DNA of 64,000 bases from Balanoglossus misakiensis (lineage: Eukaryota > Animalia > Hemichordata). Position numbers and translations under genes: made by a program. Positions 11,017 to 50,553 of this stretch are shown piece by piece. The notes below the pieces were generated by a model. It made no database searches. It was given only the letters and a program-made list of their open reading frames with translations, and had not been told where the DNA came from. The stretch covers positions 15,476,550-15,540,549 of the forward strand of contig CM082579.2 in NCBI GenBank assembly GCA_040954595.2. The letters run 5' to 3'. Positions within the stretch are counted from its first letter, which is position 1; each line of letters starts with the position of its first letter.

Positions 11017-11057
11017 CACTACAGCCCAGTGTGCGCCATCTTTGTCCGATATTTCCG
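11017..11057 (+). repeat. Left terminal inverted repeat (imperfect, about 40 bp)
   Basis: Begins CACT and shares the blocks GCCCAG, TGTG, TTTGTCCG and TTCCG with the reverse complement of 16543-16582. Confidence 0.8.
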
Positions 11058-15856: not shown

Positions 15857-16477
15857 TCACAAATGCTGAGCAACACCATGTTTGTTCCAGCATCCAAAAT
15901 GGAAATGTATTGTCACTGTCTCGGCTGATTTCCTGTATCTGACAATCATAGGTTTATCTTCGGTGCAGATAACTTCCACCCGCTTACCCTTTACTGTCTT
16001 CACCAGAAGTTGTTGGTTTTCATAGTTGACACCTCTACCCAGCACGTAATTCACTTTGTTGATCCAGGTAAATCGAAAGGTAGCAATACATGGAGTTTCC
16101 CGATCATAAATTCCCATTGAATTACGGGTAGCGCACTTTCGAAATACATCGAAAACTTCCATAGGAACATTCCTACCAAAACTGCACTTCCATGGGTTGC
16201 GCACTGAGGGTGATGGCTTCATTCTCTGCATAATTGTTGAGCGCCAGTGACACATCTCCCGTTCGAATACAGGATACACCGGAATCTGCTGCATCTTCGC
16301 AAGCTCCACCATCGTTGCACTACGTTTGCGAACTGTTACATCAACAGCAGCATCGAGATCATCAAAACAATCATGTAGGTTGATGGAACGGTCGATATTT
16401 GTCCTCAATAACTGAAATTTGGCCTCACGCAGCTTACGTTTCACTGTTTTAGAAACATCGATCATGGACGCCGCCAT
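15857..16477 (-). CDS. Uncharacterised 206-aa protein, transposon accessory gene convergent with the transposase
   Basis: Uninterrupted ORF with a strong start context (aaaATGGCGGCG) 105 bp inside the right TIR. Composition looks globular; no domain recognised. Confidence 0.7.
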   Translation of the reverse strand: MAASMIDVSKTVKRKLREAKFQLLRTNIDRSINLHDCFDDLDAAVDVTVRKRSATMVELAKMQQIPVYPVFEREMCHWRSTIMQRMKPSPSVRNPWKCSFGRNVPMEVFDVFRKCATRNSMGIYDRETPCIATFRFTWINKVNYVLGRGVNYENQQLLVKTVKGKRVEVICTEDKPMIVRYRKSAETVTIHFHFGCWNKHGVAQHL

Positions 16478-16542
16478 TTTGTATATACGATGCTAGGAAC
16501 GTGACCCCAGCATATGACCTCAATTAACATATTTCCGCTTCG

Positions 16543-18542: not shown

Positions 18543-18619
18543 GTTGATGAACGGGAATTCAATGTTAGAAAACCCGTGTGGAAAGTATCTCTACCCGTTT
18601 GAAACTAAGAAAAGAATTT

Positions 18620-21600
18620 ATTACGGGCCCAAGCCAAGCCAGGCTTGGGCCCGTATTGGTTTCGTTGGAATTTTTAGGGCTCAAGCGCATACCAGCGCTT
18701 GGGCCCTATTGGTTTCGTTGGGGTTTTTAGGGCCCAAGCGCATACCAGCGCTTGGGCCCTATTGGTTTCGTTGGGGTTTTTCTTTCTTCTTTCTTTCTTT
18801 CTTTATTCTTGTGTCAATTCTTTGTCGCTCTAGATCTCAGACACCGCTGCAGGTACACTTCTGAAACTTGCTACAGTGGTCAAGGTCAATGAGTAGTCGT
18901 GCATTGAACCTGTGAATTTTTAATTAGTCACGTGACCTGGCGGCCATATTGGATTTTCTGAAAAAATGCAAATCTCAGATCTCAGAAACTACAAGTCAGA
19001 TCGACTTCAAATTTGGTGTGCAGGTAGTCTACCTTCTACCCATCATTTTTGTAATTGGATATTTTGCTGTAAATGTTGCAGTTTTTTTGCTACAATTTTT
19101 TTTCTGAAATCTGGCTTTAATTTCAAAAATCTTCTTCTCCAGAACCGGTGATAACTGAGTCACGCGGTTTGGGGTATGTGGTCACCTAACAGATGTCTAT
19201 CAAGTTTGCGAAGATCATTGTGATTGGTCGAAGATTATGGCGGCCATATTGGATTTTCGAAAAACCATAGTAAAACTTCAAAAATCTTCTTCTCAAGAAC
19301 GGGCGATAACCGAGTCACAAGATTTGGTGTGTGTGGTCATTGAACAGGTGTCTATCAAGTTTGCGAAGGGGAATGTGATTGGTCGAAGATTATGGCGGCC
19401 ATATTGGATTTTGTGAAAAACGATTAAAAAGTAAAAATTCCTTTTCTAGCCTAAAAATTGATAGCACAGAAATTCTTTTTATGGATATGAATCATCATAT
19501 GACAAGAATAAGCTATAAATATTTTGGTAATTTTGGCAATGACCTTTGACCTACTTTTGACGCATCATTTTTCTGCATATCTAATTCCAGGCTTACCAAT
19601 AGGGCTATAAGTTTGGTTTTTGATGTATGTGGATTTGTATGTGATCAAAAAATGTTGCTACTTTTCATGACCCCTTTGACCTCTGGTGACCTCATTAAAT
19701 ATGCGCATACCTAATTAATGATGAACCAATAGACCTAGAGGTTTTGCTTTTGTTATACATGGACCAGTATGGGGTCAAAATATTTTGCCCAAATGTTGGG
19801 TGACCTCGGGTGACCTTTGACCTACTTTTGCATATCTCGACATCCACAGCAGATACAACCTTGGCGTTTGGAGGTATGGGGCCATAATGAAAAGCCAAAG
19901 TTTTGGGTCACCTGTGACACCTGCTTAACTCATTATTTATGTGCATACCTAATTCCGGGCTAACCAAAACGGCTAGAGGTCTGGTTTTTGTTGGACATGG
20001 ACCACTATGGGTCAAAATTTTCTGCCCAAATTTTGGGTGACCTCAGATGACCTTTGACCTACTTAACACTATATCAGCACCAAACATAGATATAACCATG
20101 ATATTTCATGGGATAAAACACAGCATTATATTTCTACTCATTAATTATGTGCATATCTAATAATCTGATCAGATAATAGAGCTTGGGCCCGGACAATGCT
20201 GCTTGCAGCTTTAATTCTGTCTTTCCTTCTTTCTTCTTTCTTCTTTCTTTATTCTTGTGTCAATTCTTTGTCGCTCTAGATCTCAGACACCACTGCAGGT
20301 ACACTTCTCAAACTTGCTACAGTGGTCAAGGTCAATGAGTAGATGTGCATTGAACCCTTGAATTTTTAATTAGTCACGTGACCTGGCGGCCATATTAGAT
20401 TTTCTGAAAAAATGCAAATCTCAGATCTCAGAAACTACAAGTCAGATCGACTTCAAACTTGGTGTGCAGGTAGTCTACCTTCTACCCATCATTTTTGTAA
20501 TTGGATATTTTGCTGTCAATGTTGCAGTTTTTTTGCTACAGTTGTTTTTCTGAAATCTGGTCAAAATTTCAAAAATCTTCTTCTCCAGAACCGGCGATAA
20601 CCGAGTCACGCGGTTTGGGGTATGTGGTCACCAAACTGAGGTCTATCAAGTTTGCGAAGATCATTGTGATTGGTGGAAGATTATGGCGGCCATATTGGAT
20701 TTTCGAAAAACCCTAGTAAAATTTCAAAAATCTTCTTCTCAAGAACCGGCGATAACCGAGTCACAAGATTTGGTGTGTGTGGTCATTAAACAGATGTCTA
20801 TCAAGTTTGCGAAGATCATTGTGATTGGTCGAAGATTTTGGCGGCCATATTGGATTTTGTGAACAACGATTAAAAAGTAAAAATTCTGTTTCTAGCCTAA
20901 AAATTGATAGCAAAGAAATTCTTTTTATGGATATGAATCATCATATGACAAGAATAAGCTATAAATATTTTGGTAATTTTGGCAATGACCTTTGACCTAC
21001 TTTTGACGCATCATTTTTCTGCATATCTAATTCCAGGCTAACCAATAGGGCTATAAGTTTGGTTTTAGATGTATGTGGATTTGTATGTGATCAAAAAATT
21101 TTGCTACTTTTCATGACCCCTTTGACCTCTGCTGACCTCATTAAATATGCATATACCTAATTACAGATGAACCAATAGACCTAGAGGTTTTGTTTTTGTT
21201 ATACATGGACCAGTATGGGGTCAAAATATTTTGCCCAAATGTTGGGTGACCTCGGGTGACCTTTGACCTACTTTTGCATATCTCGACATCCACACCAGAT
21301 ACAGCCTTGGCGTTTGGAGGTATGGGGCCATAATGAAAAGCCAAAGTTTTGGGTCACCTGTGACACCTGCTTTACTCATTAAATATGCACATACCTAATT
21401 ACAGATGAACCTATAGACCTAGAGGTTTTGTTTTTGTTATACATGGACCACTACGGGTCAAAATTTTCTACCCAAATTTTGGGTGACCTCAGATGACCTT
21501 TGACCTACTTTTGCATATCTCAGCATCCAAAGCAGGTACAACCTTGGCGTTTGGAGGTATGGGGCCATAATGAAAAGCCAAAGTTGTGGGGTCACCTGTG

Positions 21601-24736: not shown

Positions 24737-24809
24737 ATTAACCGTAGTATTAGTTACGTAGTATAGATTGTGGTATAGATTTATTTTTGAGTATAAATAT
24801 AGAAGAAAC

Positions 24810-25271
24810 ATGGATATCGCAGAATTTATTGAGTCACCATCCCTTGCCGGATTGGAAGCATGTAAAAAGGTGGATTTAATTGAGATTGCAAACAAACTTG
24901 AGCTCAGCGTGAAAACTTCCATGCGTAAAGATGAAATTAAGCGTATCATTGTTGCATTTCTGGTCGATGAGGATAAATTGCCACTAGATGCTTTAATTCA
25001 GTATCCTGAAATTGAAGAAAAGTCGACAAATGCGGATTTGCGTCTGATGGAATTAAAAATGGAATTTGAATTGAAGGAGAAATTGAAATTAAAAGAAATT
25101 GAAATGCAGGAAAAATTGAAATTAAAAGAATTCGAAATTAGAGTAAAAGAAATTGAAACTGCGGAAAAGATGAAAATAAAAGAAATGGAAATGAGAAATA
25201 ATCTTGAGAGAGAGTCAATGGGTCTTCAACCAGATGTAAGAAATAACACGATTGGAAATATTTTGGGATAA
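24810..25271 (+). pseudogene. gag: Truncated Gypsy gag N-terminus
   Basis: MDIAEFIESPSLAGLEACKKVDLIEIANKL...RKDEIKRII followed by an E/K-rich coiled coil, 74 bp after the PBS. No pol or 3' LTR follows. Confidence 0.75.
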
Positions 25272-25947: not shown

Positions 25948-26628
25948 ATGACCCTCAACTATTGAAGACCATCACAGATATGACCCTCTATTTTTGAAGG
26001 TCACTGTGGACATGACCCTCAATTATTGAAGGCCATCACAGATATGACCCTCTATTTTTGAAGGTCACTGTGGACATGACCCTCAATTATTGAAGGCCAT
26101 CACAGATATGACCCTCTATTTTTGAAGGTCACTGTGGACATGACCCCCTATTTTTAAGGTCACTGTAGACATGACCCTCAATTATTGAAGGCCATCACAG
26201 ATATGACCCTCTATTTTTGAAGGTCACTGTGGACATGACCCTCAATTATTGAAGGCCGTCACAGATATGACCCTCTATTTTTGAAGGTCACTGTGGACAT
26301 GACCCTCTATTTTTGAAGGTCACTGTGGACATGACCCTCAATTATTGAAAGCCATCACAGACATGACCCTCTATATTTGAAGGGCACTGTGGACATGACC
26401 CTCAATTATTGAAGGCCATCACAGATATGACCCTCTATTTTTGAAGGTCACTGTGGACATGACCCTCTATTTTTGAAGGGCACTGTGGACATGACCCTCT
26501 ATTTTTGAAGGGCACTGTGGACATGACCCTCAATTATTGAAGGCCATCACAGATATGACCCTCTATTTTTGAAGGTCGCTATGGCAATGCCCCTCTTTCT
26601 GTGAAGGCCACTTTTGACGTGACCCTGA
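25948..26628. repeat. Minisatellite, 32-bp unit with two interspersed variants, about 21 copies
   Basis: A: atgaccctcaattattgaaggccatcacagat; B: atgaccctctatttttgaaggtcactgtggac. Confidence 0.95.
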
Positions 26629-27766: not shown

Positions 27767-30700
27767 CTAGGCTTCATCTTCATCTTCTATGTCCATTATA
27801 CAGTTAACTACATCTTGGATGATGGAAAGATGGTCCAAGTCACTGGATGGAAAAATGCAATGTCGTCCTGCCTCTACTGCTGCTAACAAACCAGTTGCTG
27901 AAACAATGAAAAAACAGAACTGTCATATTTTACATTTCCATACTTCAATCTATATAAATACCAGATATTAACTGAATATGCTCACGTGCAGTACTGTGAT
28001 TGGTTGACAGAATAACAAGATTAGAAAAACCAGTGCTAAACCATTTTGGTTTATAGTGTATATGGTGTAAGGGTTGTGTGTTGCACCATTGTGAAATGTA
28101 AACATGTTTGTGGAATTGTTGCCTTGTCAATTTTTGTAAGGGGTTAGGGACGATGTCAAATAACAAAAAATAAGTTTAGCTTGAAACCCCTGCACTCCCC
28201 CTTGTAACGTAATTGTTGAATACTGATCAGTGCCTCTTATTATTTCATTATTGTGACAACTCCATATTTAAACCATAACCAGGATAGAAAAGTACACTAT
28301 CACACGTATTGATATTTCGACAATATTTGAATGAAAACATTTCTTTTCAATTCTGAGTTTACATCAGGTCTTGATTTCTGTTCATGCCTAAGAACCTCTT
28401 TAACAAGTTTCAATAAGGAAGACATTTTGGCAAACAACAGGAAATTCAGACAAATCTGACTGATATCACATATATGAATTCCCATTCAAAGTTTCCAATC
28501 AATTGGACTTGTGGTTTTACTGAAGACTATTTGGCCAAACCCTGCAGAAATTCCCAAAAAATACAATTATGCAAATTTCATTACAATTTGATCATATCTG
28601 ACTGAGATCACCCCTAGGAACCCAAATACAAAGTATCAAAACAATTGCACTTACAGTTTCACAGGATTTGATTTTTTGACAAAAACAGGAAATATTGCCA
28701 AAAATTGCATTTTTGCAAATTTCACCACCGTTTGCACAAATGTGATTCAGGTAAGCCCTATGAACCTCCATACCAAGTTTCCAATCAATTGGACATGTAA
28801 TTTCAGAGAAGATTTTTTTTTTAACAAAACTGCAGAAAATTCCCCAAAAAATTCATAAAAAATAGCAAACGCCAGATACTGACTCCACCTGAACAAAATC
28901 ATACGAGGTCTTCCCAAAGTACTTGCACACCAATGCACGCCAATTTTTAACTGAATCTGATCCGCTGTTATTAAGTTTTTCAATTTTGACTATTTGAACA
29001 TTTTTCCAGTTAATATTGCTATAAGCTGACATTGATATACATGTTAGCCAAAAACCAAAATCAACCTCAAAATAGACATTAAAATATATTGCACCACCAT
29101 GAGAAGACAAATTCATTCTTCGACAAATTTTCTGGGGCGTCATTGATATAGCATGGCATATTGTCAAAGTACGTAGTCTCTGTGATAAGATTCCATACAC
29201 ACAAAATGGTAACCTTGGAAGTCCAGCTGACGTAGTTATGCAATGGCGTCTCGTGTATTCCGTCGCCAAAAAATCATCGTAAAATTGATAGTCGGGGTCA
29301 CAATTCAAGACGACTTTCTCTAAATTCTTTATGAATGGATTAAATCGAAATCGAAATGTTGACGTATGACGTACGGAATGAGATCTGAACAGACATTCAA
29401 TGTTATCATTCTCGCTCGATCACATATTGGGTAGGCCATCTAGCAATCGCTATATAGTATTGGCGATAACAGACTGTCTATAAACACACAAAACGGATTT
29501 TACTGTTTAGTGTGATCAACCGCCATGTTATTTTTCTCTGAACAATAGACAAATAGAAAGCCTGGTGACATTTTGAGATTGACTGTAGATTAACAATTTA
29601 CGCTCTATGAAGCAACTAAACAACGTTAGCTTCCTTGTGGATTCACGTAGGGAAGTTATTCGTAACGACGGGTACAGCGTCTCAGCATGGACAGAACCAC
29701 GGCAATATCGCCAGGAATGTCTCATTTCACAAATTAAAAATTTGATAATTTCATTACTATCCAAGCCACACCTACCAAAACCTTTCCAGTTCTTGCCATT
29801 TAGATCCTGAAACTGTGTAACTGTAACGACGAGTACACTGTCTGAGCACAGAGCTATATACTATTACACAGCTACAGCCCAAGCTACAGCTAAACTGGAC
29901 TTTCTCATTCCACAGCGCCCTCAAACAGTCGATCTCCTCAAACTACCGTTTCCACTGGTCATATATGCGGCATTAACGAAAGCTCTCATAGACAACCATG
30001 TAATAGAAAAATTAAAACTTTAATAACTTCATTAATATCAAAGCCACACCCACCAAAACCTTTTCAGTTCTTGCCATATGATATCTGAACCTGTGTACTA
30101 AATTTGGTTGAAATCGGTTCAGCGGTTCTTGAGATATCGGGTATACAGACAGACACACACACATACATACACACACACAGACATCGCTAAACCATTAGCT
30201 CACGTGATTTTCACGTGAGCTAAAAATGATGACAAAGAAACACATACCCAGATTATTCTGAAAGCAAGTTTGACATTATTGTAATCCTGGATATCACACA
30301 TAATGTCATAATGGACCTGTTGATTATAAAATGGTATTGTACTTTTTACAAATAAGTCTTATTTATGACAGCCCCCCCCCCCCCCACCAGCATACTGTTG
30401 CTTTATTCTGAAGTTCTTGAATTAGTTGTCTCAAAGCTATATTTGATTATATCATGATTGAATACACCCTGTAATTTCATATAAAGAAACATACCTCTCT
30501 CACTATCTGAAACATGCAGGACCCACTCTCCAGGATGGCTTAACCAATTTATTGTTTGGCTGTAGAGGCCTGTTGGTATCTCACCACTCACTTGCTGTGT
30601 TTTTGTTGACCAGACATTCTGTGTTGTCTTGCTGAAATTTTCCAAATAAGATTTGCCGTCACCAAAGTAGCCTATAGCCAAACATTTCACAACATCTACC

Positions 30701-33700
30701 AATCCAGACTTTTGACCTACAGGTGAAATACAAAGGGATATAAACCTTTTGTTAGTGCCATGTACAGAAGAAGTAAAGTATCCTACTTGTACAATTATCT
30801 ATAGTTGACAAGTCATTGTCAATTGCAAAGTCCCTGATGACACATACTTATTACACTCGTCCAAAACATCACTGAAAAATCATTGTTGGCTGAAACATGC
30901 AAATGAATAAAAGCAAAGGAAATTCGTATAAGATGGTCACCTAGCAGCCTTATTTTGATACTGATAATATATGAAACATATTTAGGTACTTGCATGCCCA
31001 TTTTCCTGTCAATCTGTTCATTAGTTATTGAGTTTTTGATTTTGATACTCTAATTAAGATACCACAGTCAAGGTGGGGAGAAGAAGTTTTCAAGTTTTTG
31101 TAGTGGATGAAATTACATATATACAGATAAACAAGTGATCCTGTACTCTCCAAACTTGTATACATAATACATGTATACCAAGTTGCAACAGCATGTGTAA
31201 ATGGCCTTATTCTAACTTATATTGAATAAATACCTCTGGAACAGTTTTCCACATGGCAGTATGCCGGTTGAACGTAGCAGTTTTTTTCCTTCTTGAGAAC
31301 TCCCAGAACATCACTGATCTGCATTACATCACAAATTATTGCAATATTATACATCTTCTTTTGTGAATCACAGTTGACAGCTTTTATCATGACAACCAAT
31401 CGGTTGATATCATCAACAGACCATTCCTACAAGAAAAAATACGTTGAGTGTCATTAATAAAACTGTCATTGTGTAGTTGTACTCACAATGATAACTGTAT
31501 AAACAGTCAGTGTTGACAAGAATGACACTGGCAGTTTCAACAAGATAGAAATAGCTGTTGTTCATACAGCACAGTTAATGCCGGTCCCATATCATTTTTG
31601 TTATTAACCATGAACACAAGTTGTATACTGAGTGATATTCAGATATCAGTGAATACAATCACAGTTATATAGTTTTTAATGAGCTTTTAATCAAATTGAT
31701 GGATTCATACCAATGGAAGTACACGGGTGTAAGGTCATGAAGAGGTCATGGAAACGGCTAATTGGTTGCAAACATGTATGTGACAAGAGTAGAATTTTGA
31801 AATAAAAATAACTTACCTTAGGCATATCAATCAATGTTAAGTCAATGCCAGAAAACCCTGGGCAGTGTTCCTTTAGGAGAACTGTATTTAAATTTTGGAC
31901 AGCCTCTGAGATCGTAAAAGCATATGTCCCATTTTGGGAATATGCTGCAGCCTTTTTCGTGTTATCTTTGTACTTCTCCAACAGAAGCAACCGCTGGCAG
32001 TAGTTGACAAATCCGTCTGGAATTCCTCTGGAGAAGGACAGCTTGGTAAATTCCTCCAGTCTCTCACGTGTTGCTTCTTTCGGAAATCGTTCAGTCGCTT
32101 CTTTCCACCCACCATCCAAACAGTTTGTCTGTTGACAAAAGCTCCTCTGTATAATGTCTAACTTTTTCAGAGTCGATGCCTCCTTACACATTTCAGCATA
32201 TGACATAGTGCTGTCAATTACATTTTCCAACAGCAGGCGCTGATCCTCAGTGTCTATACAGAAAAAGTCTTGGAGTTTGCTGTAGGGTAGAACAGGTCGA
32301 TTCTTATACTCTTCTCCTTTTAACTTCTGGTCTTTGGTTGCCCCATCTTCATACATCTCTATAACAGACATCATCAGTTCAAAGTTTTCAACCATGGATG
32401 AAATCCCATAAATAGTTTGCATCATGGCACTGTTGACTCTCTGTAAAATGAAAAAAAAAATGATTACAAAATTGTTTTCATACAAGTATAGTCATAAAAT
32501 CATACTACTTAGACCGATTTCACACATATTTATAAGTAACTATAAATCAGTGGAATCCAAAAAAAAAAAATCATTGAGGAATATTTGCCAATTTGTGTGA
32601 GGTGTTTATGTATTGGTTGTTTCGTCTGTTATTGTCAAATGCTATACCTTGTCAAATTGATTTTCATAGAAAGCTAAAGCTCTATATACACAATGTCATT
32701 CATAATATTTTCTAAATCATATTGGGACATCAATCAGGAGAGTTTTCGTACATGGTAAAAAAGCATTGAAAGCTGGGAGGAATTAGAGACATAAGGTATC
32801 TATGGAGTAATTTTCCTTCAGGAGAACATCGGGTCTGACTACAATCAATATAAGAAATATTAAAAACCACTGAAAACATGGTAAAGCTGCACAAATATAA
32901 ATACATGTACTTGCCTCTTTCAAAATCAAAGCACACGATTTTTCCCAATTCGCTTTGTCGTCCTCATTTCTTGTTCTTTCATAGAGTTCTCTACACACTT
33001 TGACCTACAAACACAAGAATAGATTACAGCCATTATTAGTCAATACTGTGTGTACTAACATTTCATATTAATTAGTATCCCAACAATTAATTGATCCTGA
33101 ATGCAAAGTGAGATGAAATGCAGAAGAATACCAGTTTTTTGTGTTAAAACAAACAAGCTCCAATGATAATCATTTTTGATATTGTGAACATGTCAGCCGA
33201 TGGAACATCAGTGATCTCACAAAAAATCATATTTGTGCCTAAATAAAAAACTAAGCTATATGAATTTTCTCCATCATTCAACTTCTGTCAGTGTTGTTTC
33301 AACTTTTTTTAAGAGTTTTTTTTTTTTTTTTTTTTTTGGGGGGGGGGTGCAGATATGAAGTAGCTAAAAAGCATACCAGCTAAAAGATGTGTTTCAGAGT
33401 ACAATCTTGTTGTTAAATTCAGGACAATAGTGACTAGGACAGAAGCCAATAACACTGCAATGTAATGTTTCTTACAATTCCTAAAACTTTATTTCCCAAC
33501 ATTGTCTTATCTGTGTTGAATTAGGATTTGATTTGTAATTGTCATGATCATTATAACACTCATTCACATCACACACATTACCTTATCTTTAAAGCTCATC
33601 TTGCTGTGCTGTTGCATTGTGATGTTGTGTTGGTTGGCTAACCACAGTCTCTGCTCCTCATTCAAGTCAGCATACACCACAGCATATCTGGACTGCAGCT

Positions 33701-36700
33701 CTTCCCTATCGGGGTATTTTTCAGCCAGATTCTTTACAGCAAGATACGAGTGTTGGCCTCCAATCACTTCGTAAGTGTAACCATTGACCTAAAATTTGCA
33801 ATTAATATATACATTAAAATTAACATGGGTTATGAATCTAATTTTCAAATCAATCCAACCAGCAGTTTTCAAGATTTATACTGATCACTCTCATGTTTGT
33901 TTCAGCTAATATGATGGTAGTGTCAAACAAAATCTCAATCCAGTGTGCAACTAGAAAAATAATAAAAGATGATCCATCCTTTGTTTCCAAAATATTTGTA
34001 GAGGAAACTATTATGTCATATACATGTACGCAAATGTACATTTTCCAGCCAATAGGAACTTAGCTTGCCATACATATCCCAAATAGGAGCAAAGAATATT
34101 ATGGCATAACATATAAACCTGTCCAAATAAATCAGACTGATCATGCAAATGAACAATAAAACCACTGTCCTTGTTAGCCTTAGAAATAAGAAATAAATTG
34201 TATTACAGTAATATACATTTTTTGCACTTACATTGCTGTCTCTGAAGTTTAGCTTGGTTTCTCCCTTCAAAACGACAGCAAGTGGCTGATATGCTTCGTT
34301 GTAGAACTCCTCCATATACTCCTGAAGGTGCCTTACCCAATCTTCATTTACTTCACGGATTTGTTTTCCAACTTCCATTGATTTGATGCTTATAAGATAT
34401 GTTCCTATGAAATGGTGAAATTTCAAATACCATTGTCAATTATATTCACAAAGATTACTCATAAAAACAGAAAATCTTTTTCTGTATTGATATTGTTACT
34501 GTAAGTTACTGTTACAAGTTTATTGCTAAAATGCACACAATATTGCTTCAGCCGTGCACGTATTACAATATGGGACTTTCTAGCTGAATTTAGTTACCAC
34601 CATATAAAACAAGTCTTTCTAGAAAGATACAAGCTGCCACTTCTAGTGTCTAAGCTTGATTCATGTTTACATACCAATATGACAACTTCTGATACTTTTC
34701 TTCATCGCTTCGGTTTCTTTGTCAATTTCAGCAACCTTTTCGTGTATTTTCTTTCGCTTTTGTAGAGATGGTATGGCCAGTGCTCTGGCTTGATCACACA
34801 GCCTTTTCCTCTTCCTTGATTTTTTTTTCCTTGGAGTTTGAGTTCTGGATAAAAGAAAAATACACAGAATTACTTCTTTTTGTGAAGAAGCAAATTTTTA
34901 GATAAGTAGGAAAGAAACGTAGTTTCACGCATCTCAGACATCATGCATCATTCTTAAACACATTTTGAGTTCATCATTGTCATAAAAGTCTAGTGAGAGA
35001 CTTATCAAGCAATATGTCCCTGATTATGTTGCAATTTCAAAGATGAAATGAACTCATGGTTTTAATCTAGAAAGAAACATGACACATTTTGCATCTTTCA
35101 TGACATGTCCATTGCCAGATATTTATCTGCTGTGTTCTGCTAGAAATTTACCTGTAGAAAATGTTAAAGCCAAAAATCATGTTGGACTCTCACAGGAATT
35201 TCAAGTCGTTCAAAAAATGTTTATAGGGATAAACTGTGTTTACGCCATCTTGGAAATTTGCAGTGCATTATGGGTCAATTGAGTTCTCGTTGGGGGGGAG
35301 TAGCGTCTACAACCGCTGGAAAATTGGATAGGTTGTAGACGCTACTCCCCCCAAACCGGAACTCAATTGACCCATAATGCACTGCAAATTTCCAAGATGG
35401 CGTAAACACAGTTTATCCCTATAGGGTAGGTTTGGTTACTTGAAACTGACAATATATTTGTGAGCCTCAACACTTACCCTGCGGTATTTGGTTCTGAACT
35501 AGGGCTATTTTCCTCTACACTTGGGCAATCTTCCTCTTCATCCATGTCATCTTCATCAGACAATTCCACACTTGACACAGACATAGTACTGCACGGTGAT
35601 GAACTTGTCTCCCCAGTTTTTTCCAATTCCAGCAGCCTATTGAACTCTTCTGCGAAGTCAACTGGAGTCTGATAATCTCGTAATTTCCGAGAAAATTCAC
35701 TCTTGTTCCAGGTGAACGATGAACGAGAGAGCTTGAAGGGATTTTCAACTGGAAGGCTGAATACAATCTAGTATGAGAAATAAACAGTTTGTTAGTGAAC
35801 TATAGTTTCAAAAGTTACTACATCATGCACAGCACCAACATAAATCTACACAGCTTAGCTTGAGTGGTCTGGTAGTCTATGCACCAAAATAAACACGGCA
35901 AATAAGAAATTCACATGAACATACATGTATGGCATAGTCAGCAGCACAGTGGATTCCCAACAATACAAAACTGGTCAGTTTTTTTTTTCAATCTGTGGCA
36001 TGTTATTGAATGTGGTTTATTGAATGTGGTCAGGTGCACAAGAAAAGCTAGAACTGATTTGAAAAACTGATTGGCCCATGTATAACGCCCCTGCTTTAGC
36101 TGGGTATGTAGAGAACTACGCGAGGCCCTAGTGTTTTCTGGTTTCCAATTTTCAAAGACAATGTTACGCCAATGTTGTACCTTTTTCGGGTCCCAAACAC
36201 GTTCGACGACGTCACGTCGTCAGGTTAAAAGTCATTTCAAAGCCCGGGAACTCACATACCTACACAACGCAGGGCTAAGGCTATGACGTCATGATGCAAA
36301 ACCCATACTTTTCATTAGCTTTGTGTACACGATCAACGCCGCTGGTTTGGGAAACGCGATCGTTGATCGAGTATTGCATAGCCACATACGATTCAATGAA
36401 TTTGAGAGTACGAGACCAGAAATATTACATCGCAGTGGCCTGGAGCACAGTCGCCTGGGAGTTGGGTCGTAAACACTGCGCCGTGTATACGATCCAACTC
36501 CCAGTCGACTGTGCCTAGTCTAGGGGTACCACAAGCATTTGTAATGGCGCCCATTTTTGAAGTTGGCTAAATAAACGGATCACGACCGGAACTGAAGCAA
36601 GATAAGACCTTAAATACTTACCTTGACAAAGTCATCGTTTTTTTCGGCATGGGCACCACTATCATAGGCTACAACTTTCCTTACTGCGCTGTATGGAGTG

Positions 36701-36807
36701 CTTTTCTTTTTCGGATGAAGTTTTGAGGGGCCACTGTCCTTGTAGTCGAAATATACAAACACGGCATCGTTTTCCCGTTCGAACCACCAACGGCGCGCTC
36801 TAGGCAT
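27767..36807 (-). CDS. 10-exon gene (~761 aa): ParB/Srx-like domain plus degenerate beta-class N6/N4 DNA methyltransferase-like domain
   Basis: Exons 36807-36622, 35767-35478, 34844-34675, 34404-34232, 33788-33582, 33004-32915 (GC donor), 32440-31817, 31426-31234, 30716-30495 and 27897-27767 join in one stop-free frame (2286 nt). Motifs: IREVNEDWVRHL..QPLAVV..YEVIGGQHSYLAVKNL; GIDLTLIDMPK; LYSQTINWLSHPGEWVLHVSDSERATGLLAAVEAGRHCI. Confidence 0.8.
28330..30225 (-). mobile_element. Intronic HINE/Helentron-like repeat, probably composite; left boundary uncertain
   Basis: Terminal hairpin ttagctcacgtgattttcacgtgagctaa (about 30195-30223) lies next to a (CAGA)/(CA)n microsatellite. Core repeats aaagtttccaatcaattggac occur at ~28488 and ~28775. 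Confidence 0.55.
35222..35423. mobile_element. Fold-back MITE with ~90-bp near-perfect arms and TA ends, intronic
   Basis: tatagggataaactgtgtttacgccatcttggaaatttgcagtgcattatgggtcaattgagttc...gagtagcgtctacaacc is mirrored by ggttgtagacgctactc...acacagtttatccctata. Confidence 0.85.
36445..36514. repeat. Short imperfect hairpin / micro-MITE
   Basis: gcacagtcgcctgggagttgggtcgtaaacac pairs with gtgtatacgatccaactcccagtcgactgtgc. Confidence 0.65.
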
Positions 36808-37458: not shown

Positions 37459-37812
37459 TAGCTCTGCGTACAGGTCTGTGTGTTTCCGGCGTTACACGGT
37501 TACCGGTTGAGATAGACATATTGCATGCAGGCTTAGGCCCAGGCCTACAGCGAGTTTATTTCCATGGATAGGCCTAAACACAAAGGTTTTAGAAAGCGAG
37601 CGATTCGGACGTTATAAGAAGTAAATCACATCATATTTGGACTTGTTTAGGAGTAAGAAGTAGACAGGGAAAGGATTTTCCCCCCGCAAACATCGAATTT
37701 CGGCTGAAAAGCTGCGGTCCGGACGCACCAGTTTTGTCTATGGAGCCGTGCAGGGCCGTGGTGGAGGCCGTGTAACGCCGGGAGCACACACACAGACCTG
37801 TACGCAGGGTAA
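37459..37812. mobile_element. Palindromic MITE with 9-bp TSD (AcademH-like)
   Basis: Arms tagctctgcgtacaggtctgtgtg..ccggcgttacacgg and ccgtgtaacgccggg..cacacagacctgtacgcagggtaa. Flanks cttgggagt / ctcgggagt. Confidence 0.75.
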
Positions 37813-41500: not shown

Positions 41501-44500
41501 ATGGATAATTCTGATAATCTAACTGTTGATCATTTCATGGAATGCACATTTATAGAGCAGGAGAAATTTCTAGGCCACAGAGGGATACGAGCAGATGATA
41601 AACAGGAGCAGCTGGCTGAAAACGAAGAAAAATGTACAGATGAAGAGTCAGACGTCAGAACAGACTGTTGGAGTTCCACGAGCGATTGCGGAACTGGTAC
41701 CAGCATAGCCAGTTTTTGCCCAGGTCACCAAAACATTGTCAACTCGGACAGCATTCCTGAATGCTCCCGTCCTGCCTCCTTGGTCGCAGCCACTCTTTCT
41801 ACTGCAAGCAGTTACACAACAACAACAATAGCAACACATGCATTCTCAAGTGATGAGCCTGGCGAGCACAGTTCTGCAGATGGTGTCGTTGCCGAGGAGA
41901 TGGATAATGACAGTGACGTGTCGCCTCCAAGAAAAAGATATCGTCGTTGCAGTCGCCGAATTTCCCAGCCATTGCGCAATTATACAACTGTTTACAATAT
42001 TCGTTGTTGTGACTCGAAATGCCTTCACTCATTCTCACCAAGCGAGCTGCGTGAAGAGGAGATGATGTTTAAAGACCTTGACAATGAGTCGAGACAAAAA
42101 CAGTTTATTATTGACACTCTCCGCCAGTTTTCTTCATTCACCTACTCAAAGAACAGAAGAAAGGCCATTGTCACGGACCTCAAAGTGCTTGGTAAGAAAA
42201 CATGTGAACAAGCATGGCGTGAAATCTATAATGTTAGTGAGAAAAGATACGAAGATTGTGTCAGACTTTTCCGTGACGGCAAGGTGAACATTGTACATGG
42301 CAACACACATATGAAAAGGTCAGCAGCCAAAACTGAGAGAGCCTTGTCGTGGATGCGGTTTTTATTTGAGCGAATCGGTGATTGGATGCCTCATAAGACT
42401 CAGGTAGGTTATTTCAAATCCTTATTTTAATTGAAGTTTCAAAGCTTCAACTCATGTCTGACAAACTTTGCACCAGTAACAAGGTGTGCCACATCTTTTT
42501 GAAAGTGTGAATGAACTGTGTAATACAGATGGAATACAGAAATAATCTTTACCAGATATAATCAACCGATTGAATTGACCAATTTTAATAGCTGTGATTT
42601 GAGAATTGTAGGGCCTTTGTGATCAGTTTAGGACCAACATCTGCGGTACTGTTTGTTTGTGTGCGAGTCCCTTCACTATAAAAACATGAGAACCACCTCA
42701 TGTGTCAAGTCATGTTGTATTCATAGGGTGATGCGTCCTGGACTTGCCCTTGATATCATCCTCTGCTCATGAACAAATTTTGTGTTTATAAACAACGAGT
42801 TTGTAACTTATGTTTGTACTGTACATGTTATCATTTATCTAGGTACATTTGCCAACATCATCTTCAAAGAAACTATTCCATAAAAGAATGCTGAAAGAGT
42901 TTGAGGAAGACTTGGGTATCAAGAAGGACGACAACATTAAATATGAGTATTTCACAGAAATATGGCAGAAACACCTGCCAGAATTTGTCATTCCAAAGGT
43001 TAGTAGGAAACATTTGGAGGAAATTTGTCATCAGTTGCATATGTGTCAGGACTAATTTTCAGATGATGCTTTTTAAAAGTTATTTCTGATTGAAGCTAGT
43101 CGATAGTTCAAGAGGGCATCAGCAGATGCTGACCAGAGGGGGGGGGGGGGTGTTTAGGGCAACTTTTGTCATTTTCAACCTAAAACATGCAACCACCAAT
43201 TGGGCATACTTTCTGCTATATAGTACTTAAATTGCTTTGCTGTCCTATTTTAGAGGTAATTAGATCAGCAGTAGACCATGTGTATCAAAGAAGTTAACAT
43301 TCTTGATTGTATCAATGAATAGATCAAGTGTAAATAATGTATCATTGATGTGATTTTTTTTCTGATTTTACAGCGTCAAGAATTTGTGAAATGTAGCATA
43401 TGTGTTCAGCTGAAGGAGGACCTTGCTCGGGCAAGAACAGCAACGGAAAGAGAGAAGATAAAGAATTTGATTGACACACATGTGCAGCAGGTTGAGTAAG
43501 TATACAGTTTGGGGAACTAAAAAAAACTAGATTGTGTATGAAAATGTAATCGGACAAGCTTGACAATGTCTTTAGAAATATTTTTTATTCAGTTTTAATG
43601 GAGAAGTACCGGTATGCTTTCATGACGATTTGATAGAATGGACTATAATTAACCCCTGAACATCTCTTTAATGTTACAGACCAGCTCATGAGTTTTTCTG
43701 AAATAGTTACTTTTACTAAAATGGACTGTTTTCATTACCGTAGGGTGTAAATGCAGGTTCAACTCAATGAAAAATATGTATGTTGTGTACACAATTATAA
43801 TTTCATTGTTTCTTTACAGGATTGAAAGACGGGTGTACCACAATACACAAGAACAAGCTAGAAAAGAGGCAGATGAAGTAATGTGTATAATCCAAGATGG
43901 CATGGACCAAGCAAAAACCTGTATTCCCCATCTTGTTGAGAATGACAAGTTGACTGCATGTCTTGCTCGTATAAGACTTCATCTTACTGGTAAGAAGATA
44001 TTTTAGAAGGGTTGGTTGGCCATGGCATCTGTATGTTTTCTTTGGTTATGTGTACGTCAGTCAAATGCCACATCATGAGGTTTTGTTGTGCAAATGTACC
44101 CCACTGTGTTACACATGAATTATTGTCAGTCAATTATCTTTTGCTCCGTTTGTTTTTTACTGAACACATACACATTCATATTTTTACATTTTAGGAAATA
44201 TCATTCACACAAATGTACCAGGGGGCAAGATAGTGCCAGCGTATTTGGATGTACTGAACTTTCCACATGACAGCAATCTGTCGATGAACCTCCTTTTGCA
44301 GACTTTGGTAGACAACAAAGTCAGACTATCAAGGAGATTGTTTGCCCAGATGGACAATTGTTACCGAGAGAACAAGAATAGATACATGCTGTCTCTTGGA
44401 CATCTTCTGGTTGAGTTGAACATATTTGACCAGGTAATAATTTATTTACTTCATGTACAGTTGCATGCAAACTATACCATTACTATATTGTTGGTCAATT

Positions 44501-47500
44501 ACATTGCATATCGTTTGTCCCCATTGTTTAATTTCTGTCCATTTGGGTATGAGGAATTGCCACAGGTTGTTCACTGAGGTCAGTCATCAGGTGATTCTGC
44601 ATGATTCAGTATAGTTATTTAGACAAACAGGTCACAATGTGTAACATGAATAGAGTAAACTTATTTTCAAAAGTTAGAGCTGCTATCCTTTTAAACTTGA
44701 TGTAAACTGGACTCGGGGTATGTTCATGACAGATCAAATCCTTTCAAATGAACAAAAGGGTACTCTCACACCCCTGTTACAGTCAAAGGATCTGGCAGTT
44801 GTCACTTCTTTGATTTTTAACTTTATGTTAGTGGGTCCATCAGACCAGACAAAAAAAATCTCTGTGGTTTAACCTTGCATAAATATTAGTCCCAGACCTT
44901 AGACCAATGAATTTGCTCACCCCTGTGAACAGCTGATGTGTGTAGGAGCCCTTGTCTTACAATTGCAAAATGTTAATCATTCTTATCAGTGTATAAATTT
45001 TAATGATAGAATTTAGTTTAATATCTCATGCAGTTCGTCAAGTATATGCTGATCATGTTTTTTTGAAATCAGTAGAAATGTACATTTCTTTCAAGTCAGA
45101 TATTGTCACTTCATGATTTTGAACATGGCATTGTTTATGCTACACTATGCATTGAATGTATATATATATTTGACATGTGTCGACCCTGCGCATAACTGTC
45201 AATCTTATGCTCCATCGATGTTGAAGTGTATTGAATACATAGTTTTGATAGATACGTAAACATACCCCTTAAAACTGATTGAATGAGTTCTTTTGTGTTC
45301 TGTTGCAGGTTGACTTCCACTTCCTACCAGTTGGACACACACATGAAGATATTGATCAACTGTTCTCATGCATTAGTAAACTACTCCGGAAGACAAATGT
45401 GTATACTATGGCAGGTGAGACAGTTGTCATCAACTTTCGATTAAGATTGTATGATTATCACTTTTTGACTGATAAAATCAGCTACTTTATAGTTCATATT
45501 CTAAATCTGCAAAAATATGCAATTAAGTAAAAAAAAACGTGTAAAAATGGTCAAAAATAAAATCTCACTACTAGGCAAATTGGTGAACAGGTACCTAAGG
45601 TTGAGACTTCATATACTTTTCTTAATTTTGTATCTTGGCAATTTTCTTCACATATGGTAAAGAATCCACTCTGAATTGGCTTGCCAAATTGCTTTGAAAT
45701 TTGGATGACAGACAGATTTGTCTATAATTGGTTAAAAAACTACAATCACAAAACAGGAAGTGTTGTGTTCTGAATATAACTCTGGTGTTCTCAGCACAGA
45801 ATGACAGACAAGTAATCATTTTAGTGTCATTAGAACTCTCATTCTAAGCGTGTAGAATCTGAGATACAGTAGGGCCAATATCTACACAATCATCATTCAG
45901 GTCAGTGTTCAAAAGTAAAATAAAAGGTTAGATCTAGAGAATAGGAGATATGTAATAATGATATAGAGAATAGGAGATATGTTATAATGATATCACGGGC
46001 TGTTTGGTGATATGAAGGAACTGGCTTATAGTTTGGATGCCTTCAAAGCATGGAAGACCATAGGAGAAAAAAATCCAATTAAAGTCATTCTGATATGCCT
46101 GATGCACTAGTGTAAAGCATGTTATTGGAACTGCACAATTTTACTGTTGTCCTCAAGGTAATATAATGGTACAGCCTGATCTGAAACCAGGAATATTATT
46201 ACCTATTAAACACCCCTGTGATTTTTTTTGTCTGCAGATATGGAGCGGATTATCACTGGCTGTTATAATGTACCTGTCTTCGTGAAACATGTAACTCATG
46301 TGTTTGATATTAAAAAGTGGTTGGTCCCACACATGAGCAAATATTTCAGAGGACAGTCGAAACCATTGTGTTTTCAGTTCAAGAAAGTAGATGGGCAGAC
46401 CAGAATGCGTTATCGGCACTACTCTACATCTGTCTGGAGGCCAACAGTCCAGTATCAGCAGGGAACCACCACACCAATTGATGAAAGTTTGGGGCTAAAG
46501 TGCTTACAGGTATTTATATTATATGATTTATATGCATCAATATAGAAGTTTGCAGTGCCCTGAAGACGTAACATGAAAAGGGGGACCATGCAATATTAGT
46601 ACTGAGCCGATTTGACATTTTTAAACTTATTTTAATGAGATCGACTTCTGTCATATCATGAGAGCAATTGGGCAATTTTGAATCAAAATATTTCCACCAG
46701 TTACAATTTACAAAAATCCTTTTGCCTGAACTGAAAATATTTTAAAATTGTAGTACTGATCAATGTACATGCTGTTTATCTCATAGAGTGTGCCAGATAT
46801 CAATGACGTTCCAGATTTTGTACAGCCATGCATAGAAAAAATGGACCCTGTGAAGCTAAAGAAGGATATCCCAGACAGTTATGAATGGAGAATACCCAGG
46901 GATGCTGACAGAGAGTGCCTGAGGGACTTTGTGGAAAATGTTGAAATATATGAACAGGTGTGTTATACTTCAGACATAAAAGGCATACTGGATATGACAG
47001 TTATTTTCAGAACACATATTGCAGAGAAAGAACATGCAATATAACATTCCTTTTGAAAAGCATAATTCCTTTGAGTGGTGAATTAACTATAAACTTGCAA
47101 TTTTTCTTAGTCTTTGCGGACAGCGTCAGGGGGACTGGGCTCTGTCCAGTCCTGGGGGGGGGGGGAGGGTATGGTCAATCTGCCCATCTATCTGTCAGTA
47201 CATGTGTCCGCCGCAAAGAACATGATAAATTTGAAGACATGGCTTGTTGCAGATAAGCGTTTTCCTAACTGCTCGAGTTTTTCTTTCGTGGATAATTATT
47301 ATTATATATTATGCACTCTGATTCACTTGTAGGTTCCACCAAACAGACCAACAACATGGTTTTTCCATGATCTGATTGAAGCAGCAGACCAAAGAAGGCA
47401 AAAGGAAACAGAACAGACACTACCAAGCCACCTTGAAGTGATCAGGACAAGAATTGAAAGAGAGTGTGATGATGTAAGTAGCATTTTAATTGTAACTATC

Positions 47501-48266
47501 ACTGGTTCAAGACAGAATTACACTAATGATAAATAGTGTTCTGAAAATGTACATGTGGATATATAGTGAATCAACATTCAACCACACACAACTTCCATCC
47601 CACTTGCAGAAACACACAAGTGAAAAATTCAAAAATTCAACTTGCGAAAATAAAATGTTTTACATTAATTAATGGGAAAAAGGCAGGGAGAGAGAGACTT
47701 TGTCCCTTTAATGTGGGCAGCACGTACTTAGTATATTGGCAAAGTAAAATTATTCCTGTCGACGGCAAAGGAGTAGATGTCTGTACATGCCAAAATTAGG
47801 CTCAGCTAGACTGAACTTGCCCTGGGTTTGGAGTTTGCCTGAAAAAAATTCAATTCTCTTTTAGACTATCAGCCATTTCAACTAGAAAAGCTAAATTAAA
47901 GGGTAACTTCACCTTTAAAGGGGACTATTTTTCATGACAGGCTTGATCATGATTTTTTTCTTTATTGTTAATAGCAAAGCCATTTTGGAAAGAAAAATTA
48001 TGAAAAGTGAAAACTCAATGTGATAAATAAAGTGTTAAATCTTATCAATCTTATAAAAAAAGACCTCTAAAAGTATTTTATTCTTTTTTTTTTCTTTTTA
48101 ATAGGTCATTATTGGAAGGACACCACGACCAATTAGTAGGGCAACAAATGACCAAGGAGATTGTAACAATAGGAATGGATTGGATACCAATGCAGTCTTG
48201 AATGTTGACAACTTTGAAACGTTACAGGAAGATATGTTTGTGGCTGTGTACATACACTATACCAAA
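41501..48266 (+). CDS. Multi-exon Sola-like / DUF7869-type DDD transposase; start uncertain, 3' end cut by a tandem repeat
   Basis: Exons ...-42403, 42843-42998, 43374-43495, 43820-43989, 44195-44433, 45309-45414, 46238-46509, 46787-46957, 47333-47473 and 48105-~48266 splice in frame. Motifs: CCDSKCL, IGDWMPH, FVKCSIC, IIQDGMDQAKT, AQMDNCYRENKN, FLPVGHTHEDIDQLFS. Confidence 0.85.
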
Positions 48267-50553
48267 TGGCTAATTTGCCTCCCTTTGCCAGGGTGGGTAA
48301 AGTGCGGTTAAATATATGGGGGTACCTTTGACCAGGTGTATGTATTACTGTATATTTCCTTTGTTTCCCAGCAGTTACAAGATATGCCCAAACTTGTAAC
48401 TTTAACCCTGTTTTACCTCATGATGACAAAGAAATACACTCAACTGTTCATCGCTTTTGACCTGGGGTCACAGGAAAATGAAGTACCTCTTTTGTCTTAA
48501 TTATTCACCCCCCTTGCATTGTGACAAAGGCTCTTGTTTGACACCAGTGTAAAAGCAAGTAGTTTACACATTCTTTGTTAGTACGTCATAGTAGAGTTCA
48601 GATAAAACTTTTCCAACCCAAATAAAGTTGTTATTTTGAAATACTTTGACGGTAAGAAAACGTAGAGAAAATTTAGTCCTGTTTTCCATTGTGAAAATGG
48701 CTCCTTATATTGAAGTTTACCCGGGCGATAAAGGTGTGCGTATTTGATGAAACATCATAGTGACAAACAATAAAGTTTCCATATTGTTTACTGAGGTTAT
48801 CAAAGGATTGATAAATGACATGCAACATCACTCTGTAATAATTGGCTAATTTACCTCTCTTTGCCTGGGTGGGTAAAGTGCGGTTAAATATATGGGGGTA
48901 CCTTTGACCTGGTGTAGGTATTACTGTATATTTCCTTTGTTTCCCCGCAGTTACAAGATATGCCCAAACTTGTAACTTTAACCCTGTTTTACCTCATGAT
49001 GACAAAGAAATACACTCAACTGTTCATCGCTTTTGACCGGGGGTCACAGGAAAATGAAGTACCTCTTTTGTCTTAATTATTCACCCCCTTTGCATTGTGA
49101 CAAAGGCTCTTGTTTGACACCAGTGTAAAAGCAAGTAGTTTACACATTCTTTGTTAGTACGTCATAGTAGAGTTCAGATAAAACTTTTCCAACCCAAATA
49201 AAGTTGTTATTTTGAAATACTTTGACGGTAAGAAAACGTAGAGAAAATTTAGTCCTGTTTTCCATTGTGAAAATGGCTCCTTATATTGAAGTTTACCCGG
49301 GCGATAAAGGTGTGCGTATTTGATGAAACATCATAGTGACAAACAATAAAGTTTCCATATTGTTTACTGAGGTTATCAAAGGATTGATAAATGACATGCA
49401 ACATCACTCTGTAATAATTGGCTAATTTACCTCTCTTTGCCTGGGTGGGTAAAGTGCGGTTAAATATATGGGGGTACCTTTGACCTGGTGTAGGTATTAC
49501 TGTATATTTCCTTTGTTTCCCCGCAGTTACAAGATATGCCCAAACTTGTAACTTTAACCCTGTTTTACCTCATGATGACAAAGAAATACACTCAACTGTT
49601 CATCGCTTTTGACCGGGGGTCACAGGAAAATGAAGTACCTCTTTTGTCTTAATTATTCACCCCCTTTGCATTGTGACAAAGGCTCTTGTTTGACACCAGT
49701 GTAAAAGCAAGTAGTTTACACATTCTTTGTTAGTACGTCATAGTAGAGTTCAGATAAAACTTTTCCAACCCAAATAAAGTTGTTATTTTGAAATACTTAG
49801 TCGGTAAGAAAACGTAGAGTTAAATTCAGTCCTGTTTTCCATTGTGAAAATGGCTCCTTATATTGAAGTTTACCCGGGCGATAAAGGTGTGCGTATTTGA
49901 TGAAACATCATAGTGACGAACAATAAAGTTTCCATATTGTTTACTGAGGTAATCAAAGGATTGATAAACGACATGCAACACCACTCTGTAATAATTGGCT
50001 AATTTACCTCTCTTTGCCTGGGTGGGTAAAGTGCGGTTAAATATATGGGGGTAACTTTGACCTGGTGTAGGTATTACTGTATATTTCCTTTGTTTCCCCG
50101 CAGTTACAAGATATGCCCAAACTTGTAACTTTAACCCTGTTTTACCTCATGATGACAAAGAAATACACTCAACTGTTCATCGCTTTTGACCTGGGGTCAC
50201 AGGAAAATGAAGTACCTCTTTTGTCTTAATTATTCACCCCCCTTGCATTGTGACAAAGGCTCTTGTTTGACACCAGTGTAAAAGCAAGTAGTTTACACAT
50301 TCTTTGTTAGTACGTCATAGTAGAGTTCAGATAAAACTTTTCCAACCCAAATAAAGTTGTTATTTTGAAATACTTTGACGGTAAGAAAACGTAGAGAAAA
50401 TTTAGTCCTGTTTTCCATTGTGAAAATGGCTCCTTATATTGAAGTTTACCCGGGCGATAAAGGTGTGCGTATTTGATGAAACATCATAGTGACAAACAAT
50501 AAAGTTTCCATATTGTTTACTGAGGTTATCAAAGGATTGATAAATGACATGCA
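48267..50553. repeat. Tandem repeat, 576-bp unit, about 4 near-identical copies
   Basis: tggctaattt(a/g)cctc..tttgcc.gggtgggtaaagtgcgg starts at 48267, 48843, 49419 and 49996. Confidence 0.97.

What the first reader, a model, noticed from the sequence alone, without database searches (positions are those of the whole stretch)
27767..34404. ParB-like domain fused to an apparently catalytically altered beta-class DNA methyltransferase in an animal gene
This gene is fragmented in the ORF track and only emerges after splicing. Seen: GIDLTLIDMPK (about 31817-31850) sits where motif IV (IDLIxxDPPY) is expected. LYSQTINWLSHPGEWVLHVSDSERATGLLAAVEAGRHCI (exons 30495-30716 and 27767-27897) follows the motif X-I scaffold LxxxxIxxxSxPGDxVLDPFxGSGTTxxAAxxxGRxxI. 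Motif IV precedes motif I, which is the beta-class order. DPPY has become DMPK and the FxGxG SAM loop is lost, yet the frame stays open over 10 exons. The ParB-like box reads IGGQH rather than the GxxR of CTPase ParBs. An acidic tract and an NLS-like RKKKSRKRKR precede it. Inference: a nuclear pseudo-methyltransferase or DNA reader retained for a non-catalytic role.
Basis: partly seen in the sequence, partly recalled or inferred. Interest (0 to 1): 0.78.

Follow-up and report, generated by a model that had tools for sequence, protein, structure and literature searches.

The report
Transposon ParB protein with dead methylase
This spliced animal gene encodes a bacterial-style ParB protein fused to a DNA-methylase fold that lacks its catalytic residues, and it travels with a neighbouring transposase-like gene as the likely second gene of a large jumping element, where it would bind the element's own DNA rather than methylate it, a design already reported (with a predicted active methylase) in algae.

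Summary
In detail: a 761-aa, 10-exon gene (36807-27767, minus strand) with every quoted motif. Folds of two homologues show a PH-like domain, ParB-N plus helical region, and a beta-class amino-methyltransferase (Z 22.6 to CcrM). The catalytic aromatic residue is missing in 71 of 71 scorable relatives; SAM-binding motifs survive in 5 of 10 but not here; the ParB GxxR arginine is missing in 14 of 14. A divergent, nearly intact DUF7869 transposase-like gene lies 4.7 kb upstream. In Ptychodera flava, 6 of 10 such transposase loci have this gene at a neighbouring accession, and the two genes diverge together. A 32-bp-period array of imperfect palindromes lies 1.2 kb downstream. So it is most likely a transposon accessory protein, not a host gene. 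Closest known: Sola1-1_Ec32 of Ectocarpus. New here: animal lineage, dead methylase, arginine-less ParB, PH-like head. This copy looks right-end truncated. No RNA, binding or activity data. The scan found the same system before on other DNA (e1-6729163, e1-6729164, e1-10597277).

The parts
36622..36807 (-). Exon 1, start codon; first half of predicted PH-like domain (aa 1-62)
   Evidence: aligns to N-termini of P0153, P0004, P0159, P0163; fold from P0159
35478..35767 (-). Exon 2: rest of PH-like domain, then Ser/acidic linker
   Evidence: linker disordered in both homologue models
34675..34844 (-). Exon 3: basic cluster RKKKSRKRKR (34831-34802), likely nuclear localisation signal
   Evidence: basic clusters at this place in homologues; role inferred
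34232..34404 (-). Exon 4: ParB-N first half (box I arginine, YQP)
33582..33788 (-). Exon 5: ParB-N second half, GGQH box without the GxxR arginine (33764-33750), conserved HN
32915..33004 (-). Exon 6 (GC donor): start of helical region
31817..32440 (-). Exon 7: helical region (likely DNA-binding) and start of methylase fold up to degenerate motif IV DMPK (31828-31817)
31234..31426 (-). Exon 8: methylase fold, conserved Trp after motif IV
30495..30716 (-). Exon 9: eroded motif X and motif I
27767..27897 (-). Exon 10: end of methylase fold, acidic tail, stop
   Evidence: weak profile hit E 0.077
25949..26578 (.). Tandem array, 32-bp period, 19 matched copies of an imperfect 23-bp palindrome; candidate binding sites near the element's left end
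   Evidence: palindromy of the unit only modest (200 of 5000 shuffles as good); role inferred
41501..48296 (+). Divergent 10-exon DUF7869 transposase-like gene, open frame of 824 codons, CxxC motif and three candidate acidic catalytic positions; last exon cut short
   Evidence: Pfam PF25273; model; homologues; Sola-type DDD reading of the motifs is recalled
48262..50553 (.). About 4 copies of a 577-bp unit that interrupt the transposase's last exon; likely marks loss of the element's right end
   Evidence: homologue P0179 continues about 70 aa further

Best explanation
This gene is likely the accessory (second) gene of a large Sola-like cut-and-paste transposon, and its protein is predicted to be a non-catalytic DNA-binding scaffold that would grip palindromic arrays near the element's ends. 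Shown: intact spliced frame; head-to-head position with a DUF7869 gene; loss of catalytic residues; recurrent pairing of the two genes at neighbouring accessions. Predicted from homologue folds: PH-like domain, ParB-N, helical region that aligns over the DNA-binding part of ParB/KorB/Noc, and a beta-class methylase fold where ParB has its dimerisation domain. Inferred: the basic cluster takes it to the nucleus; the ParB-helical unit binds the 23-bp palindromes as a dimer without CTP switching; the dead methylase is kept as a dimerisation or DNA-contact module; the PH-like head binds the transposase or a host factor, helping to bring distant ends together or shield them. The architecture descends from phage ParB-N6/N4-methylase fusions and decayed in two steps: first the catalytic aromatic residue, later the SAM site in part of the family. 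This copy has likely lost its right end and could not move on its own.
For: Folds: model of P0153 residues 531-756 on CcrM Z 22.6, rmsd 3.0, 214 aligned; model of P0159 on M. xanthus ParB Z 10.0, rmsd 2.4, 93 aligned, and over 180-195 residues on KorB and Pnob8 ParB Z 9.1-9.4; residues 1-115 on PH/PTB domains Z 5-6.8. Family profile hits M.RsrI, MboIIA, DpnA, CcrM at E 1.6e-7 to 6e-6. Atlas neighbours include phage ParB_N plus N6_N4_Mtase clusters (scores 0.81-0.83, leads only). Catalytic loss: 0 of 71 with an aromatic at motif IV position 4, against 8 of 8 phage enzymes with Tyr. Linkage: 6 of 10 P. flava DUF7869 contigs have a family member within 5 accessions on a contig of the same length; chance 1e-12 to 2e-9. 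Co-divergence: partners 78% identical to this protein sit by transposases 85-87% identical; partners at 41-50% sit by transposases at 60-72%. Near-identical copies on different contigs in Ptychodera, Halichondria and Lineus. ParB-N is the best-kept domain (highest or tied) in 9 of 9 comparisons. Precedents: Sola1-1_Ec32 and Bostrychia PAG3 with adjacent inverted-repeat arrays.
Against: No terminal inverted repeats, target duplication or second array found in the window. The array's palindromy is modest (p about 0.04 uncorrected), and 2 of 6 other tandem arrays in the window score about as well or better (3 and 52 of 1000 shuffles). Linkage rests on accession order, in one species; 4 of 10 transposase loci and 12 of 18 family accessions had no partner among those held. 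All folds are of homologues about 29-30% identical to this protein, not of the window protein. The PH-like match is under Z 8. The Sola label is recalled and taken from earlier notes; only the Pfam DUF7869 hit was tested.
Confidence: 0.62

Rival explanations
1. It is the transposon's accessory protein, but it works as an anti-silencing factor or decoy in chromatin through the PH-like head and the dead methylase; the palindromic array is an unrelated minisatellite.
For: The linkage evidence fits equally. The array is weakly palindromic and single in this window. Inactive methylases inside DIRS1 retrotransposons are proposed to act as mimics (PMC4738411 section 9).
Against: ParB-N is the best-kept domain and the helical region aligns over ParB DNA-binding domains. 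Inverted-repeat arrays sit beside ParB-type accessory genes in red algal elements.
Confidence: 0.2
2. The family still does chemistry by altered rules: members with the SAM site methylate a substrate using the conserved Trp in place of Tyr, or the His-rich ParB pocket binds a nucleotide or metal; this copy is a partly decayed or regulatory member.
For: 5 of 10 relatives keep motifs X, I and II; 54 of 71 keep D/S/N/H at motif IV position 1; the Trp five residues on is kept in most members that span the junction; box I Arg and box III His-Asn are kept in 13 of 13.
Against: The Trp matches the separate KWD Trp of DLPY-type phage enzymes and starts the next helix in the model, so the Tyr loop looks deleted (inference). 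Arg-to-Ala in GxxR abolished nucleotide binding in the tested ParB folds (PMC12704722). This copy lacks the SAM motifs under either candidate donor of exon 9.
Confidence: 0.11
3. It is a domesticated host gene, a nuclear pseudo-methyltransferase or DNA reader kept for a cellular role.
For: Intact frame over 10 exons, conserved intron positions, presence in five animal phyla, no element ends found here.
Against: Many dispersed near-identical copies per genome, pairing and co-divergence with a transposase-like gene, a repeat-rich neighbourhood.
Confidence: 0.07

Closest known systems
Sola1-1_Ec32 of Ectocarpus (PMC12477816; seen: search listing, passages, supplement table rows; FASTA supplements unreadable)
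   Same: Giant Sola-type element with a gene on the strand opposite to the transposase that fuses a ParB-like domain to an N4C/N6A methylase domain; proposed to bind its own element.
   Different: Brown alga, 1104 aa, predicted there to methylate. Here: animal, 761 aa, catalytic aromatic and SAM motifs lost, GxxR arginine lost, PH-like head. I could not see the algal protein, so neither homology nor its motif state was tested.
Bostrychia Plavaka accessory genes PAG2/PAG3 (bioRxiv 10.1101/2025.02.11.637652; passages)
   Same: ParB-like accessory gene with adjacent tandem arrays of inverted repeats in a giant DNA transposon.
   Different: EnSpm/Plavaka transposase; ParB is fused to a 2OG oxygenase and the methylase is on another gene.
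Phage and prophage ParB_N + N6_N4_Mtase fusions (PMC12704722, section 7 and passages; PMC4738411 passages and section 9)
   Same: Same domain order, ParB-N then beta-class methylase; among the nearest Atlas clusters and top viral fold hits.
   Different: Phage methylases fetched keep Tyr at motif IV (8 of 8); the animal family adds introns, a basic cluster, a PH-like head and a longer helical region.
Bdelloid N4CMT (PMC8885841, passages) and METTL14-type inactive subunits (PMC4738411, passages)
   Same: Beta-class fold of bacterial origin in an animal (N4CMT Z 18.9); inactive methylase folds kept as partners.
   Different: N4CMT keeps SPPY and is an active host enzyme with a chromodomain; METTL14 belongs to the MT-A70 clade and has an active partner, none seen here.

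Membership tests
Beta-class N6A/N4C DNA methyltransferases (PF01555) | Permuted Rossmann fold, motif IV before motif I | tested here: met
   Homologue model Z 22.6 to CcrM over 214 residues; profile hits; 3 homologues pass the Pfam cut-off. Transitive for the window protein.
Beta-class N6A/N4C DNA methyltransferases (PF01555) | Catalytic [DNSH]PP[YFW] motif | tested here: not met
   DMPK here; aromatic in 0 of 71 scorable relatives, PP in 6 of 71 (46 of 117 non-redundant rows dropped as gapped)
Beta-class N6A/N4C DNA methyltransferases (PF01555) | SAM-binding motifs X, I, II | tested here: not met
   Absent in the window protein; present in 5 of 10 scorable family members
Beta-class N6A/N4C DNA methyltransferases (PF01555) | Methyl transfer to DNA | not testable with these tools
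   needs an assay
ParB CTPases | ParB/Srx N-terminal fold | tested here: met
   Z 9.2-10.0 to ParB, Noc, PadC over 91-96 residues; Foldseek E 5e-5
ParB CTPases | GxxR arginine (box II) | tested here: not met
   GG[QC]H followed by S, C, T or N in 14 of 14; a viral ParB-like ORF reads GGQHR. Box register set by sequence pattern, as the tools print no residue-level structural alignment.
ParB CTPases | Helix-turn-helix DNA-binding domain after ParB-N | tested here: inconclusive
   Helical region aligns through to the DNA-binding part of KorB, Noc, Caulobacter ParB and Pnob8 ParB at rmsd 3.5-4.8; not folded alone
ParB CTPases | Binding to a palindromic parS-type site | not testable with these tools
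   candidate array found; binding needs an assay
Sola-type DDD transposons with ParB-methylase accessory gene | Transposase gene on the opposite strand, co-occurring across copies | tested here: met
   DUF7869 gene at 41501-48296; 6 of 10 accession pairs
Sola-type DDD transposons with ParB-methylase accessory gene | Transposase belongs to Sola | tested here: inconclusive
   Only Pfam DUF7869 and recalled motifs; no Repbase comparison; no solved transposase hit
Sola-type DDD transposons with ParB-methylase accessory gene | Terminal inverted repeats and 4-bp target duplication | tested here: inconclusive
   None found; the right end looks lost, and no second copy was available to fix the ends

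The most novel reading that the evidence does not exclude
Animals carry a working parB/parS-like system on giant transposons: an arginine-less, nucleotide-independent (or His-pocket) ParB clamp, dimerised by a dead beta-class methylase and tethered through a eukaryotic PH-like domain, loads on helically phased palindrome arrays and pairs the distant ends of 14-25 kb elements for transposition.
Probability: 0.3. Interest if true: 0.8.

Novelty: new variant of a known kind. Interest (0 to 1): 0.5.

Why it matters
It extends a transposon design reported from algae to five animal phyla. It changes the proposed mechanism: the animal proteins cannot write a mark by the known chemistry, so whatever selects for them is likely binding or scaffolding. 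That gives a testable answer to how very large cut-and-paste elements find their ends. It also warns that database labels such as 'DNA methylase N-4/N-6 domain protein' in marine invertebrates are not evidence of 4mC or 6mA writers. It is not a new host epigenetic factor.

Tried and rejected
No whole genome is held, so copy number, element ends and dN/dS could not be computed. No RNA holder was listed. The word-index search with exon 7 found nothing among longer proteins; the exhaustive search did. The Atlas gave no usable hit for exon 7. Phage tblastn with the ParB-only fragment P0160 found no match, and with the transposase P0185 only E 0.9. The ParB-region profile hit sulfiredoxin only at E 2.2. 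Loci L002-L004 are 2-4 kb, too short for context, and showed no transposase hit. A palindromic 42-bp motif at 37459-37812, 51282-54376, 61715-61803 and 62737-62820 was considered as a parS-like site and rejected: 3 of 4 copies have matching or nearly matching 9-bp flanks, as a MITE would. An alternative donor in exon 9 scores 3.5 against 9.4 and does not restore motif I. Repeated independent loss of the SAM site was tested and not shown: one change suffices, with weak support 71/80 and 63/79. A homodimer prediction of the methylase domain never ran because the queue was full, so dimerisation is untested. The original Sola paper is not held; Majorek 2014 text and 2 of 3 supplement files gave nothing usable in the passages shown. 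No paper holds the term DUF7869.
Full report
Observation. The minus strand carries ten exons from 36807 to 27767 that join into 761 codons without a stop. The given span omits exons 1-3. Splice sites score high against a matrix from the neighbouring gene. A profile of 21 homologues, built without the window, picks out 9 of 10 exons in order among 2199 ORFs. Intron positions are shared with two metagenome loci. No RNA run was listed, so the model rests on sequence and homology.

Relatives. Exon 7 found 183 proteins at E 0.001 or better, 150 listed. I looked up 30 proteins by cluster (26 of this family, 4 transposases). The named ones come from Ptychodera flava, Saccoglossus kowalevskii, Holothuria leucospilota, Halichondria panicea, Lineus longissimus and Priapulus caudatus; several are unnamed. 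The closest are P. flava proteins at 78% identity. Clusters at 90% identity hold members on different contigs in Ptychodera, Halichondria and Lineus.

Domains. The spliced protein could not be folded, so two Saccoglossus homologues about 29-30% identical were used. Residues 531-756 of P0153 match beta-class amino-methyltransferases: CcrM Z 22.6, M.BceJIV 20.5, M1.HpyAVI 20.1, MboIIA 19.3, N4CMT 18.9. Residues 193-315 of P0159 match ParB-N at Z 9-10, ahead of sulfiredoxin and SerK at about 7, and the helical region that follows aligns loosely over the DNA-binding part of KorB, Noc and ParB. Residues 1-115 match PH/PTB domains at Z 5-6.8 in most of the top 50 rows, a middling score. The window protein itself gives no signal against a profile of 8 phage methylases, while Saccoglossus and Holothuria homologues score 22-54 bits. 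The assignment is therefore transitive, through an end-to-end alignment.

Catalytic state. By PMC4738411 (passages) the aromatic residue of [DNSH]PP[YFW] stacks on the target base. It is absent in 71 of 71 non-redundant relatives with all four positions; 46 of 117 rows were dropped as gapped. All 8 phage enzymes fetched keep Tyr, though 6 read DLPY or DVPY, so the Met at position 2 is not the key change. The family keeps a Trp that likely equals the later Trp of those enzymes, with the loop between deleted (inference). SAM motifs are kept in 5 of 10 members that cover them, but not here; the tree needs only one loss, weakly supported. In ParB-N, 14 of 14 lack the GxxR arginine, while the box I Arg and box III His-Asn are kept in 13 of 13. 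Arg-to-Ala at that site abolished nucleotide binding in the ParB folds tested in PMC12704722 (passages and section 7). ParB-N is nonetheless the best-conserved domain.

Context. A gene on the plus strand starts 4.7 kb upstream, hits Pfam DUF7869 and has an open frame of 824 codons over 10 exons. Its motifs resemble Sola-type DDD transposases (recalled, not tested). Its P. flava homologues lie on 10 contigs; on 6 of them a member of the ParB family has an accession within 5 on a contig of the same length. The four misses were 52, 185, 4622 and 6154 away; chance expectation is 1e-12 to 2e-9. This assumes accession order follows gene order. The two genes diverge together in two subfamilies. About 1.2 kb beyond the stop lies a 32-bp-period array with 19 matched copies of an imperfect 23-bp palindrome, found nowhere else in the window. 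Its palindromy is modest and not unique among the window's tandem arrays. I tested this array only after earlier notes mentioned end arrays. The transposase's last exon is cut by a 577-bp repeat, and no inverted termini or second array were found, so this copy is likely truncated.

Mechanism. Most likely (0.62) the protein is the element's accessory factor: it enters the nucleus, binds the palindromes as a dimer through ParB-N and the helical region without a CTP switch, uses the dead methylase as a structural module, and links to the transposase or a host factor through the PH-like head. Anatomy, catalytic loss and linkage are shown or predicted; binding, dimerisation and the partner are inferred. 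The dimer prediction did not run because the queue was full. Rivals: anti-silencing accessory (0.2), altered chemistry in part of the family (0.11), domesticated host gene (0.07). Taken together, transposon cargo is about 0.9 likely and this copy being methylase-dead about 0.9.

Known systems. [quoted passage not shown] Its FASTA supplements could not be read, so the algal motif state is unknown to me; its reference 50 was not read. The Bostrychia preprint (passages; supplements not seen) reports inverted-repeat arrays beside a ParB-type accessory gene. Phage ParB-methylase fusions are well known. PMC8885841, PMC6431247, PMC5751038 and PMC3985635 were seen as passages. Eight paper searches (top 20 or fewer listed each) showed no description of the animal, catalytically dead form; Repbase entries were not searchable and may hold it. 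Earlier notes of this scan report the same system in this and other genomes; they are leads, not support.

Verdict. Real, and correctly spotted. It is a new variant of a known kind: an animal branch of ParB-methylase transposon accessory genes in which the methylase is dead. Interest 0.5.

Noticed in passing
window 55606-58614 (-): Intact 1002-codon intronless ORF with Pfam Transposase_21 (tnp2) and DUF4218, an EnSpm/CACTA-type transposase; seems a separate element.
   Followed up: partly
window 13185-15436 (+) and 15857-16492 (-): Two overlapping ORFs (396 and 362 aa) in different frames facing a 211-aa ORF; no Pfam hit; recalled resemblance to a RAG1/Transib-like transposase with a convergent partner.
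   Followed up: no
window 37459-37812, 51282-54376, 61715-61803, 62737-62820: Family of small palindromic elements with about 42-bp arms and roughly 9-bp duplicated flanks; the copy at 51282 is split by a 3-kb element with long inverted repeats (51347-54356).
   Followed up: partly
window 24762-25271 (+): 169-codon ORF that looks like the start of a gypsy gag (recalled), ending near the candidate left boundary of the element; its continuation was not found.
   Followed up: partly
window 4451-11018: 77 copies of an 86-bp satellite at 95% identity; other arrays at 12621-13197, 17441-18553, 18625-18781 (strongly palindromic 53-mer).
   Followed up: no
P0179/P0186 C-terminus (missing after window 48262): The transposase tail matches residues 1535-1617 of PDB chain 6wge_E at E 0.003; looks like a small beta-barrel, perhaps Tudor-like (recalled).
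   Followed up: no
window 62381-64000 (+): Start of another spliced gene with a coiled-coil first exon and no Pfam hit.
   Followed up: no
L001 9638-10891: Viral-contig ParB-like ORF reading GGQHR, the only viral match to the family's box II; keeps the arginine.
   Followed up: no
Atlas result for P0153: The two best feature neighbours are unnamed streptophyte clusters of 813 and 1673 aa (0.89, 0.86), possibly plant relatives.
   Followed up: no
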